Assembly (NCBI GenBank): GCA_036171075.1 | Contig: JAVHQJ010000235.1 | Span: 7,391 to 71,390 of the forward strand | Direction: 5' to 3' | DNA: 64,000 bases | Source: Sideroxydans sp. | Lineage (GTDB): Bacteria > Pseudomonadota > Gammaproteobacteria > Burkholderiales > Gallionellaceae | Part shown: positions 30,964 through 40,576 of the stretch, piece after piece | Position numbering within the stretch: the stretch's first letter is position 1 | Layout of the letters: each line of letters starts with the position of its first letter | The notes under the pieces: generated by a model | Databases searched by the model: none | Told to the model about the DNA's origin: nothing | What the model saw: only the letters and a program-made list of their open reading frames with translations | Position numbers and translations under genes: made by a program

Positions 30964-32484
30964 ATGACCTCTATTCGCCAACAAGATTTTATCGACAGCA
31001 TCGCCGACGCGTTGCAATTCATCTCCTACTACCATCCGCAAGACTTCATTCAAGCCCTAGCCGCAGCTTACAAGCGCGAAGAATCGCCCGCAGCGAAGGA
31101 TGCGATGGCGCAGATACTGACCAACTCGCGCATGTGTGCCTTGGGCAAGCGCCCCATCTGCCAAGACACTGGTATCGTGGTGGCGTTCGTGCGGGTGGGC
31201 ATGGATGTGCGCTGGGCGGATGCGACGATGAGCGTCACCGAGATGGTCAACGCTGGCGTGCGCAAAGGCTATCTGCTGCCAGACAATGTGTTGCGCGCGT
31301 CTATCGTGGCTGACCCCGCAGGACGCCGCAAGAACACGGGCGACAACTCTCCCGCCGTGGTGCATTTTGAGTTGGTGCCGGGCGACACGGTGGATGTGCG
31401 TATCGCGGCCAAGGGCGGCGGCTCGGAGAATAAATCCAAGATGGCGATGCTCAACCCGAGTGACGACATCGTGGAGTGGGTGTTGAATCAGTTGCCCCAT
31501 ATGGGGGCTGGGTGGTGTCCGCCCGGCATGTTGGGCATCGGCATCGGCGGCACAGCGGAGAAGGCGGTGCTGCTGGCGAAAGAAGCGCTGATGGAAGACA
31601 TCGATATGACTGAACTCAAAGCGCGTGGTGCGAAGAATCGTATCGAAGAGTTGCGCATCGAGATATTCGACAAGGTGAATGCGCTGGGCATCGGCGCGCA
31701 AGGCTTGGGCGGATTGACCACGGTGCTGGATGTGAAAATTTTAGATTACCCCACGCACGCGGCTTCCAAACCCGTCGCCCTCATCCCCAATTGCGCGGCC
31801 ACGCGCCATTTGCATTTCGAGTTGGATGGCAGTGGGGTGGCGACATTCACGCCGCCCAAGATCGAAGACTATCCCGATGTGCATTGGCAGCCCGCGCCCG
31901 ATGCGCGTCGTGTGAATCTCGATACCGTTACCCGTGACAATATCAAACAGTGGCAACCGGGCGAGACTTTGTTGCTCTCCGGCAAGTTGTTGACCGGGCG
32001 CGATGCTGCGCACAAACGCATCGTCGATATGCTGGCGAAAGGCGAAAAACTGCCCGTGGATTTCAGCGGGCGCTTCATCTATTACGTCGGTCCTGTCGAT
32101 CCCGTGCGTGATGAAGTCGTCGGCCCCGCCGGCCCCACCACCGCCACACGCATGGATAAATTCACCGAGACCATGCTGGCGCAGACCGGACTCATCGGTA
32201 TGGTCGGCAAAGCCGAACGCGGCAAAGCAGGCATCGAAGCCATCAAGAAACATGAAGCGGTGTACCTCATGGCCGTGGGCGGCGCGGCTTATCTGGTGTC
32301 CAAGGCCATCAAACAATCACGGGTGCTGGCGTTCGCCGATCTGGGGATGGAGGCTATCTACGAGTTCGAGGTGGAGGATATGCCGGTGACGGTGGCGGTG
32401 GATACGCAGGGCAGGTCGGTGCATGAGACGGGGCCTGCGGAGTGGCAGGGGAGGATTGCGGGGATACCAGTGAAGGTGGTGTGA
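30964..32484 (+). CDS. fumA: Class I Fe-S fumarate hydratase
   Basis: PICQDTG, KGGGSENK, GAGWCPPG, PNCAATRH, GRDAAH, GPTTATRMD. Confidence 0.95.
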   Translation: MTSIRQQDFIDSIADALQFISYYHPQDFIQALAAAYKREESPAAKDAMAQILTNSRMCALGKRPICQDTGIVVAFVRVGMDVRWADATMSVTEMVNAGVRKGYLLPDNVLRASIVADPAGRRKNTGDNSPAVVHFELVPGDTVDVRIAAKGGGSENKSKMAMLNPSDDIVEWVLNQLPHMGAGWCPPGMLGIGIGGTAEKAVLLAKEALMEDIDMTELKARGAKNRIEELRIEIFDKVNALGIGAQGLGGLTTVLDVKILDYPTHAASKPVALIPNCAATRHLHFELDGSGVATFTPPKIEDYPDVHWQPAPDARRVNLDTVTRDNIKQWQPGETLLLSGKLLTGRDAAHKRIVDMLAKGEKLPVDFSGRFIYYVGPVDPVRDEVVGPAGPTTATRMDKFTETMLAQTGLIGMVGKAERGKAGIEAIKKHEAVYLMAVGGAAYLVSKAIKQSRVLAFADLGMEAIYEFEVEDMPVTVAVDTQGRSVHETGPAEWQGRIAGIPVKVV

Positions 32485-33314
32485 TGCATCAGAGGCCAAT
32501 TCTGACCCCTACATTCAAAGCGCTGCTCCGAGAAGCACAGTTCACGAAGGAGATGCTTGGGACTGGGGCAACTCAAATTCGAGTAGCGAATTACGCAAGT
32601 AAGGGGGGTTACTTCCAAGCGTTCACCAGTCTTTCTACTGGGCTGGAACGCATCGGTAAGCTTTGTCTAATGCTGGATCATTTTATTGCTCATGGTGGCA
32701 CGTTCCCCACGCTGAGAGAAATGAAGCAGCAGATAGGCCACAAGCTGGAACTACTCTATACGCGGTCTCAGGAAGTCGTTCAGCGGCGATCCATTGAACT
32801 CCGATTTACCAAGGAACTTTCCGATCCGGTACATCAGGCAATCCTGCATGTGCTACATGACTTTGCTGAGGGGGATCGCTACTCGAACATTGATATTTTA
32901 GTCGGTGGAGGAGACTCGTCCGATTCCGTTGCGCGGTGGTTTACCGAGGTTGATACGGCTCTATATGCCACCCGTGTCTCACAGAGAAAGAAGGACGAAA
33001 TCGAACGAAACGCGAGAATAGGGGCGCAGTTAATGAGCCCATTCGCTTCAATTCTTCACACTTCGGAAATAGGCGAGGAAATATTAGATTTTGAAGAAGG
33101 CAGTAGACGCACAGGCATATGGGAGACTGTAGCGCCGCATCGGCAATTGGCTGTCCTTCAGGTGATTCGGTATTGGATCGAGCTATTAGGTCAACTTGAA
33201 CACTTGGCGCACTCTCTTCCCAGCGAACACATTCCTTACTTTGGAGAGGTATTTGCATTGTTCTATAACGATGATGCCTATTTCAAATCTAGAAAGACGT
33301 GGGAGCAAGTGTAG
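32484..33314 (+). CDS. Hypothetical protein, HEPN-superfamily-like
   Basis: 276 aa, helical; GLERIGKLCL...GHKLELL...DRY pattern resembles HEPN domains; coupled to the fumA stop (TGATG); atypical codon usage. Confidence 0.6.
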   Translation: MHQRPILTPTFKALLREAQFTKEMLGTGATQIRVANYASKGGYFQAFTSLSTGLERIGKLCLMLDHFIAHGGTFPTLREMKQQIGHKLELLYTRSQEVVQRRSIELRFTKELSDPVHQAILHVLHDFAEGDRYSNIDILVGGGDSSDSVARWFTEVDTALYATRVSQRKKDEIERNARIGAQLMSPFASILHTSEIGEEILDFEEGSRRTGIWETVAPHRQLAVLQVIRYWIELLGQLEHLAHSLPSEHIPYFGEVFALFYNDDAYFKSRKTWEQV

Positions 33315-33347
33315 GAATGGTTGAGCACAGGGTTACCCATCGAAAAC

Positions 33348-33568
33348 CGTCGGGGGTAGCCCGACAGCTAGTTACTTTTTCTTGCTTCGCCAAGAAAAAG
33401 TAACCAAAAAGAAGGCGACCCCAGTGTGCCGCTGCTTCGCAGTTCCCTGCGTTGCTCAGGCAGTCAGGCCTCCTCATAAACTCGCACGACCTGCTACGCA
33501 GTCACGTGCTCAAACATATTCGTCGGACTACCCCTGACTGCCTTCCGCTACTCGGCGGTGCACAGGGG
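33348..33568 (+). repeat. Structured ~220-nt repeat element, copy 1
   Basis: First ~75 nt are near-identical to the reverse complement of 33839-33912; hairpin TTACTTTTTCTTG-cttcgc-CAAGAAAAAGTAA; nested internal stems. Confidence 0.9.
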
Positions 33569-33694
33569 AAGGAGAGTCAAAGGCGATATGCCGGTTTTGT
33601 GTGCGCTGCGCGCACGATTGTTTTTGATTTGAGTGAGGCGGGCGTTGCCCGCCTCGTGGGTTCTGGGTTTGGGGTTCTGCTTTTGATTTTCACT

Positions 33695-33912
33695 CCCTTC
33701 TGTAGCGCTGAGGGCGGGCGATAAAATTGGGGAGAAGGCGAGCACTGTTTGAGCACGTGGCCGCGTAGCGGATCGTGCGAGTTGCGCAGCCGCCCAATTT
33801 TATTGACCGACCGAAGGAACCCGAAGGGCGCTAGAGCAGGGGCGCCTTCTTTTTGGTTACTTTTTCTTGGCGAAGCAAGAAAAAGTGACTAGCTGTCGGG
33901 CTACCCCCGACG
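33695..33912 (-). repeat. Structured ~220-nt repeat element, copy 2 (inverted)
   Basis: Same terminal block and AACTCGCACGA...CACGTGCTCAAACA core as copy 1, with different but self-complementary internal stems. Confidence 0.9.
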
Positions 33913-33950
33913 AAGTTGGTTTTAAAAGTTGATGGAGTACAGCAAGTGTT

Positions 33951-33985
33951 CCCCCACCCTAACCCTCCCCCGGTGGGAGAGGGGA
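33951..33985 (+). repeat. BoxC-like C-rich/palindromic repeat unit
   Basis: CCCCCACCCTAACCCTCCCCCGGTGGGAGAGGGGA; the same unit occurs twice at 59050-59171. Confidence 0.75.
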
Positions 33986-34079
33986 TAAAACCAGCTGGCT
34001 TCGCCCATCCTTCCATGGATTTATCCCCCCTTTTCGACTATCATGCCGCCCTGCTTGTGTAGTACAGAATTTACGAATT

Positions 34080-34176
34080 GGCGGGTCTCCCCGCATTGCA
34101 CTTTGGTGAACCTGGTCAGGTCCGGAAGGAAGCAGCCACAGCCAAGCGGTGCAAGTGCCGGGGGTAAGGCTCGCCT
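34080..34176 (+). ncRNA. ffs: Signal recognition particle RNA (4.5S)
   Basis: Conserved GGTCAGGTCCGGAAGGAAGCAGCC domain IV; closing stem GGCGGG/CTCGCC; directly upstream of dnaX. Confidence 0.95.
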
Positions 34177-34231
34177 CCTTATATTCGAGGGGGTTGCACT
34201 CGATGAGTTAAATAGTTGGGCGAGGGGTGAT

Positions 34232-35842
34232 ATGTCAGCGACTTCAGTGTTAGCACGCAAATGGCGTCCCAAGAACTTCGCTCAATTGGCGGGGCAGGAG
34301 CACGTCGTTCAGGCATTGACCAATGCGCTCATTCAGAACCGCTTGCATCATGCTTATCTCTTTACGGGTACGCGCGGCGTGGGCAAGACCACCATCGCAC
34401 GCATCTTCGCTAAATCCTTAAATTGTGAAACGGGCATCACGGCAACGCCGTGTGGCGTGTGTAGCGCTTGCACCGAGATTGATAGTGGGCGCTTTGTTGA
34501 TTTGATTGAGCTGGATGCGGCCTCGAACACGCAGGTGGATAACATGCGCGAATTGTTGGAGAGTGCGCTGTATGCACCGTCCAGCGGACGCTTCAAGGTG
34601 TACATCATCGACGAAGTGCACATGCTGTCGAAGTCAGCCTTCAACGCGATGTTGAAGACGCTGGAAGAGCCTCCCGCGCATGTGAAGTTCATCCTCGCCA
34701 CGACTGATCCGCAAAAAATTCCCGTTACGGTGTTGTCGCGTTGTTTGCAGTTCAATCTGAAGCAGATGCCACCCGCGTTGATTGTGTCGCATCTGCAATA
34801 TGTGCTGGGGCAAGAGAATATCCCCTATGAAAACGGTGCGCTGAATCTGGTGGCGCGTGCGGCGCAGGGCAGTATGCGCGATGCCTTGAGTTTGATGGAT
34901 CAGGCGATTGCTTACTCATCGGGCAAGGTGGATGAGTCATTGGTGCGCACCATGCTGGGGGCGATTGATCAAGGATATTTGTTCGATTTGTTGCAAACAT
35001 TGCGCGCGGGTGACGGTGCGGGCTTGTTGCACATCGCCGATGATATGGCGATGCGGAGTATTGCCTTTGAGGCGGCCTTACAAGATTTAGCGACCCTGTT
35101 GCATCGTGTCGCGTTGGCACAAACGATTCCGCAAGCGATTGCCGAGGATGAGCCAGAGCGTGTTCGATTGATGCAATTGGCGCAGCAATTTACGCCTGAA
35201 GAAATTCAACTGAATTACCAAATTGCGATTCACGGGCGTAAGGAGTTAGACCTTGCACCAGATGAATATGCAGGATTCACCATGACGTTGCTGCGTATGT
35301 TGGCGTTTGTGCCGGCATCGGCGGGTAACAATGTGGCGTCATCATCCCCGCGTGTTGTTGCCGCGCCCAAGGTGGAGATGCCTGCGGCAGTATCTGCCGC
35401 GCCAAAATTGCTCGTGACGGAATCTGTCGCAAACTATCAAGCGTCGAAGATGCCGTCGGCTGATCTCGATTGGAATACGCTTTTGACGCAAATCAATGTG
35501 CAAGGTATGGCGCGTGAATTGGCAAAGAATAGTGTGTTGACGAGCTTTGCAAACGGATGTTTGGTATTAAGTTTGGCGCCGCAACATAAGCAGCTTCAAA
35601 GCAATAAATTAGCGGTTGATAAGTTGCAAGCAGTATTGAGCGAGTACTTTGCGAAACCTATTAAGCTGGTTGTAGAAATGAGCGTTTCAAAAGATATTGC
35701 AACGCCCGCTGCGGTTGCACAGCATGAGAAACAAACACGACAACAGCAGGCCGAAGCGGCCATTAAGCAGGATGCATTTGTGCGTGATGCGCAAATTCAT
35801 TTAGGTGCGCAAGTAATCGAAAATTCGATCAAGCCTGTATAA
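34232..35842 (+). CDS. dnaX: DNA polymerase III subunit gamma/tau
   Basis: LARKWRP, GTRGVGKTT, DEVHMLS, SRC, GSMRDALS; ATG at 34232 after GAGGGG. Confidence 0.97.
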   Translation: MSATSVLARKWRPKNFAQLAGQEHVVQALTNALIQNRLHHAYLFTGTRGVGKTTIARIFAKSLNCETGITATPCGVCSACTEIDSGRFVDLIELDAASNTQVDNMRELLESALYAPSSGRFKVYIIDEVHMLSKSAFNAMLKTLEEPPAHVKFILATTDPQKIPVTVLSRCLQFNLKQMPPALIVSHLQYVLGQENIPYENGALNLVARAAQGSMRDALSLMDQAIAYSSGKVDESLVRTMLGAIDQGYLFDLLQTLRAGDGAGLLHIADDMAMRSIAFEAALQDLATLLHRVALAQTIPQAIAEDEPERVRLMQLAQQFTPEEIQLNYQIAIHGRKELDLAPDEYAGFTMTLLRMLAFVPASAGNNVASSSPRVVAAPKVEMPAAVSAAPKLLVTESVANYQASKMPSADLDWNTLLTQINVQGMARELAKNSVLTSFANGCLVLSLAPQHKQLQSNKLAVDKLQAVLSEYFAKPIKLVVEMSVSKDIATPAAVAQHEKQTRQQQAEAAIKQDAFVRDAQIHLGAQVIENSIKPV

Positions 35843-37712: not shown

Positions 37713-38900
37713 ATGGAACAGCGAAATAATAAGACCATTATTTGCAGCGTATTTTTCTTGGATATTGTTGAATATTCGAAGAAATCGGTTGCTGGTCAGA
37801 TTTCATTGAAGGAGCGTTTTAACGCCTTCCTTTCGATTGCTATTCGTGATGTTCCCGTTAATGACCGCATTATTTTAGATACGGGCGATGGTGCGGCAAT
37901 TAGTTTCCTCGGCGACATTGAGGATGCTTTGCAGGCGGCATTGAGTATGCGTAGTAGTTTGCTGGGCGAAGGCGTACGCATGGAGCCAACATTGTTGGTG
38001 CGTATGGGAATTAATCTGGGGCCAGTCCGTTTGGTAAAAGATATCAACGGGCAGCCCAACATCGTTGGCGACGGAATTAATGTCGCACAACGGGTGATGG
38101 GTTTTGCTGATACGGGTCAGGTGCTCGTTTCGCGCTCTTATTACGATGCCGTGTCGCGCTTGTCTAGCGAGTATTCGGGCATGTTCCATTATCAAGGTTC
38201 GCGCACAGATAAGCATGTGCGTGAGCACGAGGTGTACGCTATTGGCTATCCTGGCGATTTCACTTCAACCCAACGTAGTGTTGCGTTGCAGGAACAAGTT
38301 GAACACAGCACAGGTTGGCATCATGTGCTTGCGCAATCACAAATTGTTTGGGCATCCGCCATTCATCAAATTGCTTTGTGGGAGCGCAGAGGGATTTCTG
38401 CTTTTAGACGCATCACGACACCGCAAAAAGTGGCGGTGTTGAGCGTGGCCGCGGTTTTTGCCTTTTCGATGATATTAGGAGTTTATAAATTAGCGCACCG
38501 TCCTGCGGTGCCAGCAGTTAAAAAGGTAGCAGGAGCAGTCTCCGAAAAACCAACATTGGCAATGAGTGCACCTGTAGCCGCTTCTGCGGTTGTGGTGGAT
38601 GCGCAGAAAGCGGCTGAAAGCGAGGCGAATAAAAAAGTGCAGGGGGTCAAGCAGAGTTCGCGTGTGCGAACTCTAGCTGAAACAACGGGCGGGCCTGCTG
38701 TGGTGGGACTTTCCATTGTGCCTTGGGGGGAAGTTTATTTGGATGGTGTGCTGCAAGGCGTGAGTCCCCCTTTGCTTGAATTACAGGTTGTGTCAGGGCG
38801 ACACAAGTTGGAAATTAGAAACTCTAGTTTCCCCGTATTAAAACAAACAATAAAAGCAAAGCCTGGCGAAAAAATAAAAATAAAACACAGTTTCAAATAA
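37713..38900 (+). CDS. Class III nucleotidyl cyclase domain + TM + C-terminal PEGA-like domain
   Basis: FLDIVEYS, TGDG, RMGINLG, GDGINVAQR, DKH; TM at about aa 240-260; PWGEVYLDG...GVSPP...GRHKLEIRN. Confidence 0.88.
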   Translation: MEQRNNKTIICSVFFLDIVEYSKKSVAGQISLKERFNAFLSIAIRDVPVNDRIILDTGDGAAISFLGDIEDALQAALSMRSSLLGEGVRMEPTLLVRMGINLGPVRLVKDINGQPNIVGDGINVAQRVMGFADTGQVLVSRSYYDAVSRLSSEYSGMFHYQGSRTDKHVREHEVYAIGYPGDFTSTQRSVALQEQVEHSTGWHHVLAQSQIVWASAIHQIALWERRGISAFRRITTPQKVAVLSVAAVFAFSMILGVYKLAHRPAVPAVKKVAGAVSEKPTLAMSAPVAASAVVVDAQKAAESEANKKVQGVKQSSRVRTLAETTGGPAVVGLSIVPWGEVYLDGVLQGVSPPLLELQVVSGRHKLEIRNSSFPVLKQTIKAKPGEKIKIKHSFK

Positions 38901-38919
38901 ATTTGGATAGGAGTAATTG

Positions 38920-39321
38920 ATGCAGGCGCGTAGTTTGTTGGTGGGATTGTTGTCACTTGTGTTGATGGGCTGCGGCACTGTGGATACGTGTAATGACGAC
39001 AGGGGGGGGATTCGCTTGTTTGGCAAAGACCCTGTTGCACAAAAGTTAGACTTTGGGGTCAAGGAGTATGAAGAAGGCAACTACATTGCGTCGGTGAATG
39101 CCTTGCAGTCAGTATTAGAAACTAGGCTTGCTGGGAGTGATGATAAGGTAGACGCTTATAAGTATTTGGCTTTTATTCAATGTATTTCTGGGCGCGAGAG
39201 GTTGTGCAAAGATTACTTCCGAAAAATATTAGCGATACAGCCGAATTTTGAATTGACACCAGCAGAAGCAGGACATCCGTTATGGGGCTCCGCATTCCGC
39301 AGTGTTAAAGGAAAAAAATAA
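38920..39321 (+). CDS. TssQ-like TPR lipoprotein
   Basis: Lipobox LMGC; YEEGNY, AYKYLAFIQC...C...F, FELTPAEAGHPLWG signature. Confidence 0.8.
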   Translation: MQARSLLVGLLSLVLMGCGTVDTCNDDRGGIRLFGKDPVAQKLDFGVKEYEEGNYIASVNALQSVLETRLAGSDDKVDAYKYLAFIQCISGRERLCKDYFRKILAIQPNFELTPAEAGHPLWGSAFRSVKGKK

Positions 39322-39346
39322 GTCATTTGAATATGTGGCACAAAAT

Positions 39347-40576
39347 ATGATTAAGCAACTTGGGCGTTATGAGGTAATCAGCGAACTTGGTCAAGGGGCG
39401 ATGGGCGTCGTCTATAAGGCCAAGGATCCGCTGATTGACCGCGAAGTTGCCATTAAAACAATCAATTTAAGCTTGGCTCAAGAAGAGCGTGAAGAGTACG
39501 AGGCGCGTTTTTATCAAGAAGCTAAAGCGGCAGGCCGATTAAGTCATCCCAACATTGTCACTATCTATGATGTCGGTCGCAGTGATGATATTGCATACAT
39601 TGCTATGGAATATCTACATGGTCGCGAGCTACGCGACATTTTGAATGACAATAAAATACTACCGATTAATCAAGTTTTAGATATCACTGCTCAAGTTGCA
39701 CTAGGCTTGTCATATGCGCATGAACATCACATTGTTCATCGTGACGTAAAGCCATCTAACATTATGGTGGTCAGCGATGGGCATGTAAAAATTACCGACT
39801 TTGGCATTGCCCGCATGGCTTCTGCTGCCGTACGCACTCAAACAGGCATGGTGCTAGGCTCACCTAAATACATGTCGCCTGAACAAGTAATGGGTAAATT
39901 GACCGATCAGCGTTCGGATATTTTTTCTTTGGGCGTGATGCTGTATGAAATGTTGACGGGGCAAGCGCCCTTTATGGGCGAGAACGTTAACGCAATTATG
40001 TATCAAACGTTAAACGCGATACCTGTATCACCTAGTAATATTAATTCGAATGTGCCTGAGATGTTGAATTACATCGTCGCTAAAGCACTCGCCAAAGATT
40101 TGGACTCTCGTTATCAAAATTCCCGTGATTTCGCGAACGATTTGAGAGCCTGTCAGGCAGAACTTCCGAAGGAAATAGCAAAGTCTTCTGCTGGAACATC
40201 CGCCACTAGAGGAAATGGGAATTCAATTGATTCCTCAGTGCCTGCATTGGATTCATCTGATGAAGAATCTAAACCAGTCGTTGCACTTGGCTTGTCTACA
40301 TCGTTTGATTCAACTGAAGCGACGATGAGATTAGCCGCTTTAACTGCCAGCAATGAAGATGTCGAAGAGTTTTCAAAAACCTTCCGCATGTCGCGTCCCA
40401 GTCTTGAAGTAATCAATCAATCTTCGCCTGTTGTTAATTCTCAATTGAATCCTAAACCTGTCATTACCTCTCCGCGCATTTCTTATCGGGAGCCTACAAC
40501 GCCTACTGGTGGCTACTGGTTACTCGCAATTATTGCCCTAGTAGTCATTGGCTTGATTTCTACCATCGTTTTTTGA
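39347..40576 (+). CDS. Hanks-type Ser/Thr protein kinase with C-terminal TM
   Basis: LGQGAMGVVY, VAIK, HRDVKPSN, DFGIA, GSPKYMSPEQ, SDIFSLG; ends in a hydrophobic helix. Confidence 0.93.
   Translation: MIKQLGRYEVISELGQGAMGVVYKAKDPLIDREVAIKTINLSLAQEEREEYEARFYQEAKAAGRLSHPNIVTIYDVGRSDDIAYIAMEYLHGRELRDILNDNKILPINQVLDITAQVALGLSYAHEHHIVHRDVKPSNIMVVSDGHVKITDFGIARMASAAVRTQTGMVLGSPKYMSPEQVMGKLTDQRSDIFSLGVMLYEMLTGQAPFMGENVNAIMYQTLNAIPVSPSNINSNVPEMLNYIVAKALAKDLDSRYQNSRDFANDLRACQAELPKEIAKSSAGTSATRGNGNSIDSSVPALDSSDEESKPVVALGLSTSFDSTEATMRLAALTASNEDVEEFSKTFRMSRPSLEVINQSSPVVNSQLNPKPVITSPRISYREPTTPTGGYWLLAIIALVVIGLISTIVF

What the first reader, a model, noticed from the sequence alone, without database searches (positions are those of the whole stretch)
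33348..33912. Two inverted ~220-nt elements whose stems change sequence but keep pairing: candidate structured RNA/ssDNA family
Seen: copy 1 (33348-33568) and the reverse complement of copy 2 (33695-33912) share a near-identical ~75-nt end (CGTCGGGGGTAGCCCGACAGCTAGTyACTTTTTCTTGCTTCGCCAAGAAAAAGTAACCAAAAAGAAGGCG) and a core AACTCGCACGA...GCTACGC...CACGTGCTCAAACA. The segments between diverge but stay self-complementary in the same positions. One stem is AGGCAGTCAGG/CCTGACTGCCT (33458/33533) in copy 1 and ATAAAATTGGG/CCCAATTTTAT in copy 2, both perfect 11 bp. The outer stem is GTGTGCCGC/GCGGTGCAC versus CTCTAGCGC/GCGCTACAG. The UUCG-loop hairpin is CTGCTTCGCAG versus CCCTTCGGG. Inference: wholesale compensatory change points to selection on a multi-branched fold, not simple duplication. 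It could be a large ncRNA or ribozyme, or a non-autonomous mobile element moving through a folded single strand. I cannot assign it to a named family.
Basis: partly seen in the sequence, partly recalled or inferred. Interest (0 to 1): 0.82.

Follow-up and report, generated by a model that had tools for sequence, protein, structure and literature searches.

The report
Triple-helix repeat doublet marking gene-swap slots
Two outward-facing copies of a widespread 220-base non-coding repeat sit here; their base changes preserve a fold predicted to end in a three-stranded knot, and they likely act as folded single-stranded DNA that an unidentified enzyme re-copies into a few chromosomal slots where single foreign genes come and go.

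Summary
The two arms (33348-33568 minus, 33695-33912 plus) belong to a dispersed repeat, about 10 copies per genome, found in 35 of 36 genus relatives and mostly as outward-facing pairs. In 64 arms, 28 of 61 proposed pairs change on both sides. The A/T-rich end is a pseudoknot with a pyrimidine third strand: across seven phylum-level groups, unconstrained third-strand positions obey the triple-helix rule in 495 of 498 cases (shuffle maximum 351). Hairpin loops are c-GNA-g triloops (114; no UNCG or GNRA among the 25 commonest loop types), a DNA signature, although the short pseudoknot linkers suit RNA. At shared chromosomal sites the arms enclose or adjoin unrelated low-GC genes (31 ORFs, one homologous pair), and REPs lie beside them. 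No mobilising gene was pinned down: RAYT adjoins an arm in 2 of 35 loci, both at one site. It is an AYGGAY-less variant of the extended TwoAYGGAY repeat (Li et al. 2026 preprint), whose main text mentions no triple helix. This scan noted the family before on other DNA.

The parts
33348..33568 (-). Arm 1, folding strand is minus (5' end at 33568, points outward toward the orphan gene)
   Evidence: (260.7 bits with model R1, which includes it)
33695..33912 (+). Arm 2, folding strand is plus (points outward toward SRP RNA)
   Evidence: (188.6 bits)
33371..33418 (-). Arm 1 pseudoknot 1 with predicted pyrimidine triple helix: stem S1 5 bp, third strand 33413-33406, 13-bp stem S2 (33404-33392 with 33383-33371)
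   Evidence: three-way covariation; pairs
33349..33370 (-). Arm 1 pseudoknot 2 (4-bp and 5-bp stems, linkers of 1 and 3 nt), stacked on S2
   Evidence: (helices 9, 10)
33432..33442 (-).
   Evidence: (helix 6)
33458..33543 (-). Arm 1 variable 11-bp stem enclosing the apical module TGTTTGAGC-hairpin-GCGAGT (33516-33480), which stands where other hosts have two AYGGAY hairpins
   Evidence: (helix 4)
33842..33889 (+). Arm 2 pseudoknot 1 with predicted triple helix; third strand 33847-33854
33890..33911 (+). Arm 2 pseudoknot 2
33569..33694 (.). Conserved 126-nt spacer with two REP-like hairpins lacking the GTAG foot (33601-33615 and 33635-33655); the same spacer type occurs in 12 other short pairs
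   Evidence: first hairpin matches a REP beside this genome's RAYT gene at 14 of 15 nt
33311..33341 (+). GTAG-type REP overlapping the orphan gene's stop codon; 26 of 31 nt identical to REPs flanking RAYT genes of the genus
32484..33314 (+). Orphan 276-aa gene (GC 0.49), the variable occupant of this slot; no Pfam, PADLOC or NCBIfam family
33951..33985 (-). BoxC-like purine-motif intrastrand triplex repeat, a separate element often found beside arm 3' ends
   Evidence: sequence; 13 of 93 arms versus 0.0014 expected per 150 nt; passages of PMC4666352
34080..34178 (+). SRP RNA gene; with fumarate hydratase (30964-32484) it is the fixed boundary of the slot

Best explanation
The two arms are copies of a gene-less dispersed repeat that is predicted to fold into a long branched stem ending in a triple-helix pseudoknot and a second pseudoknot, and that likely works as folded single-stranded DNA which a trans-acting nicking enzyme, probably of the HUH/RAYT kind but not identified, would recognise and re-copy. 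Shown: multi-copy family, outward-facing pairs, covariation of pairs and triples, REP neighbours, reuse of a few chromosomal slots, arm types that change at the same slot, unrelated low-GC genes in those slots. Inferred: that the fold forms in DNA exposed as a single strand (lagging strand or incoming DNA); that the two-fold symmetric GA/GCA internal loop in the basal stem is a protein site; that the triplex knot marks or protects the element's end; that arms and cargo are exchanged by recombination at these slots.
For: Copies: 35 of 36 genus genomes; 10 in the single-contig genome G005, 8 of them in four outward pairs; 8 of 11 paired in G012. Fold: 96.4% of 3871 cells paired, 28 of 61 pairs change on both sides, slid controls at most 10. 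Triples: 495 of 498, of which C.G-C 158 of 160, against shuffle maxima 351 and 86; 350 of 350 at positions 2-7 in the 59 of 64 arms parsed. DNA signature: 114 unambiguous c-GNA-g triloops and no UNCG/GNRA hairpin among the 25 commonest loop types in 64 arms, versus 0 of 20 polar terminators of this genome; 25 versus 1 UNCG and 0 GNRA in 23 same-subtype arms from other taxa; GCGNAGC is the ultrastable DNA mini-hairpin and an RNA counterpart is much weaker (PMC13037366 passages). REP link: 43 of 93 arms have a RAYT-type REP within 100 nt versus 1 of 1000 random 100-mers; a RAYT gene abuts an arm at the mutY-ubiX slot in G028 and lies near a truncated arm there in G019. Dynamics: the fumA-SRP interval is filled in 8, collapsed or remnant in 5 and empty in 7 of 30 loci; arms at the same site and side are no more alike than random arms, 0.789 versus 0.795; 31 cargo ORFs contain one homologous pair. 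Two transposable-prophage-like ends join the element at the same base at two host sites.
Against: No mobilising gene found: no protein family recurs beside 80 loci; only 2 of 35 RAYT loci of the genus carry an arm, both at one orthologous site; RAYT (NF047646) is in 8 of 15 triplex-positive genomes versus 55 of 141 overall and in 20 of 46 genus genomes, not found in G005, G022 or G034. The arm has no GTAG foot. The filled/empty split at fumA-SRP follows the SRP promoter type and may be one old insertion. Pseudoknot 2 has a 1-nt first linker and 3-nt last linker in most cases, the geometry I recall for A-form RNA. AYGGAY-type relatives occur in CsrA-bearing hosts (18 of 20 versus 5 of 20), which points to an RNA-level role there. 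The terminator control is small (20), and the REP control used random, mostly coding, DNA.
Confidence: 0.5

Rival explanations
1. The arms function as RNA: a scaffold whose 3' triple-helix pseudoknot blocks 3' exonucleases or stalls machinery, with an exchangeable apical module that binds a host protein (CsrA/RsmA in AYGGAY types, an unknown protein here). Spread of copies would be secondary.
For: An H-type pseudoknot with a pyrimidine loop lying in the major groove is the architecture of telomerase RNA and the SAM-II riboswitch (recalled). Linkers of 1 and 3 nt in pseudoknot 2. AYGGAY subtype in 18 of 20 CsrA-positive hosts, including a spirochaete and a Selenomonadales genome, versus 5 of 20 for this subtype; CsrA not found in 5 of 5 genus genomes. 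Arm sequence appears in RNA-library contigs. Li et al. propose Csr/Rsm sponges.
Against: Triloop census. The nearest gene beyond the arm's 3' end points at it in 48 of 69 cases (rough gene picker), so host read-through mostly copies the non-folding strand. In RNA contigs the arm is covered at depths like its neighbours, against 188,909 for SRP RNA in one run (contigs cannot show strand, ends or level). The CsrA split is confounded with host class.
Confidence: 0.3
2. The arms are host-maintained recombination sites of an integron-like gene-capture system: a pair of folded single-strand sites brackets one accessory gene and lets it be swapped.
For: At five sites with both flanks orthologous (mutY-ubiX, glyQ, polA and two others) the arms enclose different contents in different genomes, and nine unrelated ORFs sit beside the fumA-SRP slot. 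Cargo is low in GC (0.37-0.56, against about 0.55-0.66 for most flanking core genes) and includes HEPN, RelA/SpoT (PADLOC PDC-S33), HNH, Lcl, LprI and DUF5677 genes.
Against: Sites are inverted, not in direct arrays; many pairs are empty with a conserved spacer; cargo also lies outside the pair, next to a REP; integron integrase not found in G000 or G005; no recombinase recurs nearby. Homologous exchange between long conserved arms would give the same picture without a dedicated enzyme.
Confidence: 0.13
3. An old selfish repeat now inert, shuffled by gene conversion; the fold is a relic.
For: Few slots reused across the genus; decay products are common; no mobiliser in several genomes.
Against: Three-way covariation is almost without exception across phyla and arm 2 here has rewritten a whole 11-bp stem while keeping it perfect; inert DNA would lose this.
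Confidence: 0.07

Closest known systems
Extended TwoAYGGAY elements of Pseudomonadota (Rfam RF01731; Li et al., bioRxiv 10.64898/2026.09.22.753630; section 8 read whole, other passages seen)
   Same: Elongated basal stem with a side hairpin, 3' pseudoknot, terminal 3' hairpin, divergent doublets (68.4% there), variable copy number, REPs at the 3' side. Model R1, built from these arms, gives full-length same-strand hits that contain RF01731 hits in G142.
   Different: No AYGGAY loops and no RF01731 hit; another apical module; a second pseudoknot; host without CsrA. The preprint's main text has no 'triplex', 'triple', 'RAYT', 'transposase' or 'single-stranded' and treats the element as RNA; its supplement could not be seen and may bear on this.
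REP / BIME / REPIN with RAYT (TnpA-REP) (PMC3116915, PMC6006769; passages seen)
   Same: Extragenic, multi-copy, inverted doublets, hairpins capped by GNA triloops, physical mixing with GTAG REPs of the local RAYT genes.
   Different: Arms are about 220 nt and multi-branched, lack the GT(A/G)G foot, end in a triplex pseudoknot, and do not flank a cognate RAYT as REPs do (2 of 35 loci).
Intrastrand triplex repeats (BoxC/TM; Holder et al. 2015, PMC4666352; passages seen)
   Same: The knot has their class IV order (Hoogsteen strand, pyrimidine strand, purine strand); a BoxC-like repeat lies 38 nt beyond arm 2.
   Different: BoxC is a G-rich purine-motif class II triplex. This one is a pyrimidine motif inside a pseudoknot; its second loop (8 nt) exceeds the 6-nt limit of their search, and no such family is named in the passages seen.
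Telomerase RNA pseudoknot triple helix
   Same: H-type pseudoknot whose U-rich first loop pairs with the A-rich strand of stem 2.
   Different: Eight to ten triples with C.G-C covariation, a 1-nt link, bacterial multi-copy repeat, no reverse transcriptase nearby.
Integron gene cassettes / attC (recalled)
   Same: Single low-GC accessory genes beside folded single-strand-type sites.
   Different: Inverted pairs rather than direct arrays, no attC core order, no integrase at the loci.

Membership tests
TwoAYGGAY (RF01731) | two hairpins with AYGGAY loops on a common stem | tested here: not met
   no hit at E<=10 in 32500-34800; 0 hits in G000, G005, G012; loops absent from 64 arms
Extended TwoAYGGAY (Li et al. 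2026) | elongated basal stem with a side hairpin | tested here: met
   helices 1-4 and 6
Extended TwoAYGGAY (Li et al. 2026) | 3' pseudoknot followed by a terminal hairpin | tested here: met
   helices 7-10; S1 of 4 bp or more in 63 of 126, shuffle maximum 26. Their figure was not visible, so identity of the knot rests on text plus overlap of hits
Extended TwoAYGGAY (Li et al. 2026) | divergent doublets | tested here: met
   8 of 10 copies in G005 and 8 of 11 in G012, all pairs outward-facing
Extended TwoAYGGAY (Li et al. 2026) | short GMTBT repeats upstream of the 5' end | tested here: inconclusive
   GCTTT and GATTT seen by eye in the spacers; no control run
Extended TwoAYGGAY (Li et al. 2026) | REPs beside the element | tested here: met
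   43 of 93 arms versus 1 of 1000 random 100-mers
REP / REPIN | GTAG or GTGG tetranucleotide at the 5' foot of the hairpin | tested here: not met
   arm 5' ends read CCC and are preceded by T-rich linkers; the neighbouring 33311-33341 REP does meet it
REP / REPIN | cognate RAYT gene flanked by copies of the element | tested here: not met
   2 of 35 RAYT loci carry one arm, both at one site, and those RAYTs are flanked by ordinary GTAG REPs
REP / REPIN | inverted doublet, extragenic, multi-copy | tested here: met
REP / REPIN | excision of the doublet seen in reads; cleavage by RAYT | not testable with these tools
   only assembled contigs were served
MITE | terminal inverted repeats with target-site duplication | tested here: inconclusive
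   the doublet has inverted ends; no duplication was seen by eye in flanks, which are themselves other repeats
Integron attC cassette array | direct-repeat attC sites with an IntI integrase | tested here: not met
   arms are inverted; TIGR02249 not found in G000 and G005, and found on contigs other than those with arms in 3 of 5 genomes
Class IV intrastrand triplex (Holder 2015) | 5' Hoogsteen strand, pyrimidine strand, 3' purine strand, stem 6-15 nt | tested here: met
   8 triples in 88 of 126, 7-10 in 120 of 126
   second loop is 8 nt
Self-cleaving ribozymes | match to a ribozyme model; self-cleavage | tested here: inconclusive
   no Rfam ribozyme hit; activity not testable

The most novel reading that the evidence does not exclude
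A natural single-stranded DNA triple-helix pseudoknot, conserved across at least seven bacterial phylum-level groups, is the recognition end of an undescribed gene-capture and exchange system: paired arms mark chromosomal slots where an unknown enzyme swaps single accessory (often defence-like) genes, with an apical module tuned to each host.
Probability: 0.2. Interest if true: 0.9.

Novelty: new variant of a known kind. Interest (0 to 1): 0.62.

Why it matters
Three-way covariation of base triples in natural sequences is rare evidence; here it defines a 48-nt module that can be ordered as an oligo and tested at once as DNA and as RNA. If DNA, it would be a functional natural pyrimidine-motif intrastrand triplex under strong selection. 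If RNA, it is a telomerase-like knot in bacteria. Either way it recasts the orphan TwoAYGGAY motif as one apical option on a shared chassis, and ties that chassis to REPs and to slots of rapid accessory-gene turnover.

Tried and rejected
Rfam: no family for the arms; on 20 and 20 of the 124 GTDB loci plus two G142 loci only TwoAYGGAY reached its cut-off. Plasmids: 2 short matches; annotated phages: none; IMG/VR: 6 loci, so phages and plasmids are not the usual carriers. A first phylum-wide pattern search was mis-specified (loop two bases too long; it missed the window itself) and found 1 of 301 genomes; it is not used for distribution. A pattern on the hairpin loop was too narrow. All-against-all search of 1618 ORFs from 80 loci found no partner gene. 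PF01797 is in 15 of 15 triplex-positive genomes versus 94 of 141, but that family is broad and positives are the larger genomes; the narrower RAYT model gives 8 of 15 versus 55 of 141, so co-occurrence was rejected as support (both totals include unpublished genome G392, a triplex-negative row on which no other claim rests). RNA runs held 4-9% of the words and were contigs of other organisms; they cannot show strand, ends or level. The orphan protein has no family in three libraries and was not looked up in the Atlas or by homologue search, so its fold is open. A reverse-transcriptase route was considered and dropped: no RT nearby, and DNA-type and Csr-type loops lie on the same strand. A kink-turn reading of the apical loop does not fit all variants (by eye). 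Literature searches for the motif letters (16 unrelated papers) and for triple helix + pseudoknot + intergenic repeat + covariation (0 papers) found no description; TwoAYGGAY search listed 8 of 13 papers.

Full report
Observation. They differ at one position in the first 70 nt and are 79% identical over 169 nt. Both 11-bp stems are perfect, and each copy folds better than 200 of 200 shuffles on either strand. Groundwater DNA contigs reproduce the region in overlapping pieces without differences. Rfam has no family for it; the only real hit nearby is SRP RNA at 34080-34178. The setting is fumarate hydratase, an orphan 276-aa gene, arm 1, a 126-nt spacer, arm 2, a BoxC-like repeat, SRP RNA and dnaX.

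It is a dispersed repeat. This fragmented genome holds the two arms and one internally shortened copy. 35 of 36 genus relatives hold it; the single-contig genome G005 has 10 copies, 8 in four outward-facing pairs, and G012 has 11, 8 paired. The best-scoring named GTDB records include Gallionella and Gallionellaceae, so the host is probably of that family (inference).

Which strand folds, and how. I aligned 64 of the 71 full-length arms found in the first 60 loci; seven longer or end-damaged arms were left out. The structure I propose has 61 pairs; 96.4% of 3871 cells pair and 28 pairs change on both sides, against a shuffle mean of 13.8 and at most 10 for slid controls (related sequences inflate such counts, and the structure was read from these sequences). 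From 5' to 3': a basal stem with a side hairpin; a quasi-symmetric internal loop in which GAG(T/C)A(G/A)CGCAG pairs with its own repeat through GA/GCA mismatches (read by eye); the variable 11-bp stem; an apical module with invariant TGAGC and CGAGTT; then the A/T-rich end.

The A/T-rich end is a triple-helix pseudoknot. It reads TCGCC, TTCTTTTT, G, GTTAC-TTTTTCTT, GGCGA, AGC, AAGAAAAA-GTRAC. In 126 distinct matches the free positions obey the rule in 495 of 498 Watson-Crick-paired cases, 158 of 160 for C.G-C; 1000 shuffles reached at most 351 and 86. The upstream 5-mer pairs with the hairpin loop over 4 bp or more in 63 of 126 (shuffle maximum 26), in more than 20 sequence combinations. In the genus, positions 2-7 obey the rule 350 of 350 times in the 59 of 64 arms parsed, while position 1 is G in 15. 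A stem of 4 bp or more starts within 1 nt of the knot in 73 of 127 flanks, and 26 of 127 can form a second pseudoknot; here its covariation is seen in helices 9 and 10. A looser pattern finds the module in 15 of 141 class-level genomes, the reversed control in 1. The triplex is predicted from sequence; it was not observed.

DNA or RNA. In 64 arms there are 114 unambiguous c-GNA-g triloops (GTA 48, GAA 38, GCA 28) and no UNCG or GNRA hairpin among the 25 commonest loop types; 20 polar terminators of this genome have none of these triloops and four GNRA/UNCG loops. Same-subtype arms from other taxa agree (25 versus 1 UNCG). GCGNAGC is the ultrastable DNA mini-hairpin; an RNA counterpart melts far lower (PMC13037366, passages). 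Against this, pseudoknot 2 mostly has linkers of 1 and 3 nt, which fits the narrow A-form major groove as I recall it, and relatives with AYGGAY loops live in CsrA-bearing hosts, 18 of 20 against 5 of 20 for this subtype, with CsrA not found in five genus genomes (confounded with host class). RNA-library contigs of other organisms cover the arms about as deeply as their neighbours and give no strand or ends. I weigh this as DNA 0.5, RNA 0.3; the conflict is real and unresolved.

Slots and cargo. Of 30 fumA-SRP loci, 8 have the pair, 1 has two knots head to head, 4 keep only end remnants, 7 are empty (44-56 bp), 4 hold a different repeat, 2 have no arm and 4 are cut by contig ends (remnants judged by eye). 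The filled and empty groups differ in SRP promoter, so this may be one old insertion. Yet the arm type on each side changes between genomes, and arms at the same site and side are no more alike than any two arms (0.789 versus 0.795), which suggests repeated overwriting. Pairs either enclose a conserved 108-126-nt spacer or usually one low-GC gene. Of 31 such ORFs only two are homologous; sites with both flanks orthologous carry different genes, and nine unrelated ORFs adjoin the fumA-SRP slot. Annotated cargo includes HEPN, RelA/SpoT (PADLOC PDC-S33), HNH, Lcl, LprI and DUF5677.

REPs and the search for a mobiliser. 43 of 93 arms have within 100 nt a match to REPs that flank RAYT genes of the genus, against 1 of 1000 random 100-mers. 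In the window, 33311-33341 is such a REP, and the first spacer hairpin matches a REP beside this genome's own RAYT. At the mutY-ubiX slot, G028 has a REP-flanked RAYT 13 nt from a full arm and G019 has it near a truncated arm. But those are the only 2 of 35 RAYT loci with an arm, RAYT is not enriched in triplex-positive genomes (8 of 15 versus 55 of 141), and it was not found in G005, G022 or G034. No other family recurs near 80 loci. RAYT may be the mover or merely another tenant.

What is known. The 5' domain of gammaproteobacterial relatives matches Rfam TwoAYGGAY (81.6 bits in L157). Model R1 built from these arms gives full-length, same-strand hits that contain RF01731 hits in G142. Li et al. 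(bioRxiv 10.64898/2026.09.22.753630; abstract, section 8 and passages read) describe the extended element: basal stem, extra hairpins, 3' pseudoknot, 68.4% divergent doublets, REP arrays, mobile-like copy number. Their main text has no triple helix, RAYT or single-stranded DNA, and its described variants keep AYGGAY loops; the supplement and figures were not visible. Weinberg et al. 2010 list the motif in a table (PMC2864571, passage). Holder et al. define the class IV order but allow loops of at most 6 nt (passages). REP/REPIN definitions are from passages of PMC3116915 and PMC6006769. Four earlier notes of this scan on other genomes reach a similar reading; I saw them after my own tests and do not count them as support.

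Verdict. A real, strongly selected structured repeat; not a member of RF01731 or of the REPs by their defining features, but an AYGGAY-less variant of the extended TwoAYGGAY chassis. New here relative to the papers seen: the covarying triple helix, the exchangeable apical module, the DNA-type loops, and the link to gene-swap slots. Mechanism: folded single-stranded DNA element moved in trans, 0.5; the enzyme is unknown.

Noticed in passing
L294:2490-2540 and L296:2490-2540 (IMG/VR contigs): Two different prophage ends with repeated TTTATCTCA motifs and head-morphogenesis-like genes (Mu-like by my recall; not scanned against a library) join the element at the same base, between the basal stem and the triplex knot, at two host sites (hemB-like and aroC-like), each followed by a REP and a foreign-looking gene.
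   Followed up: partly
L192, L201, L204, L215, between fumA and SRP RNA: A different ~120-nt structured repeat with GAGTGTAC..GTACAC/GTACAT occupies the same slot; two of the four also carry the GAGCAACGCAG motif of the arms.
   Followed up: no
window 33951-33985; 13 of 93 arms: BoxC-like purine-motif triplex repeats cluster just beyond arm 3' ends, so two kinds of intrastrand triplex sit side by side.
   Followed up: partly
L064, L069, L080, L093, L098, L130, L136: In Clostridia, Bacteroidota, Lentisphaerae and Nitrospirota the triplex module occurs without a recognisable upstream branched domain, so it may be a stand-alone unit.
   Followed up: no
L194 and L211 upstream of SRP RNA; L198/L279; L287:1760-1836; G000:C194:73-209: Regular decay products: fused terminal hairpins, two knots head to head, and arms with the branched domain deleted between the two strands of the basal stem.
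   Followed up: partly
L020:2869-3130 and L045:2857-3180: Arms interrupted by short insertions with related ends, possibly footprints of another small element.
   Followed up: no
window 32484-33314: Orphan 276-aa gene without a family in Pfam, PADLOC or NCBIfam; a diverged copy of part of it is in a wetland metagenome run.
   Followed up: partly
L048:1992-2531 (G019) and split SRP-dnaX matches in G002, G008: An extra stretch lies between SRP RNA and dnaX in these genomes.
   Followed up: no
window 37713-40576: Adenylate/guanylate cyclase-like gene followed by a lipoprotein and a Ser/Thr kinase-like gene (kinase by eye).
   Followed up: no
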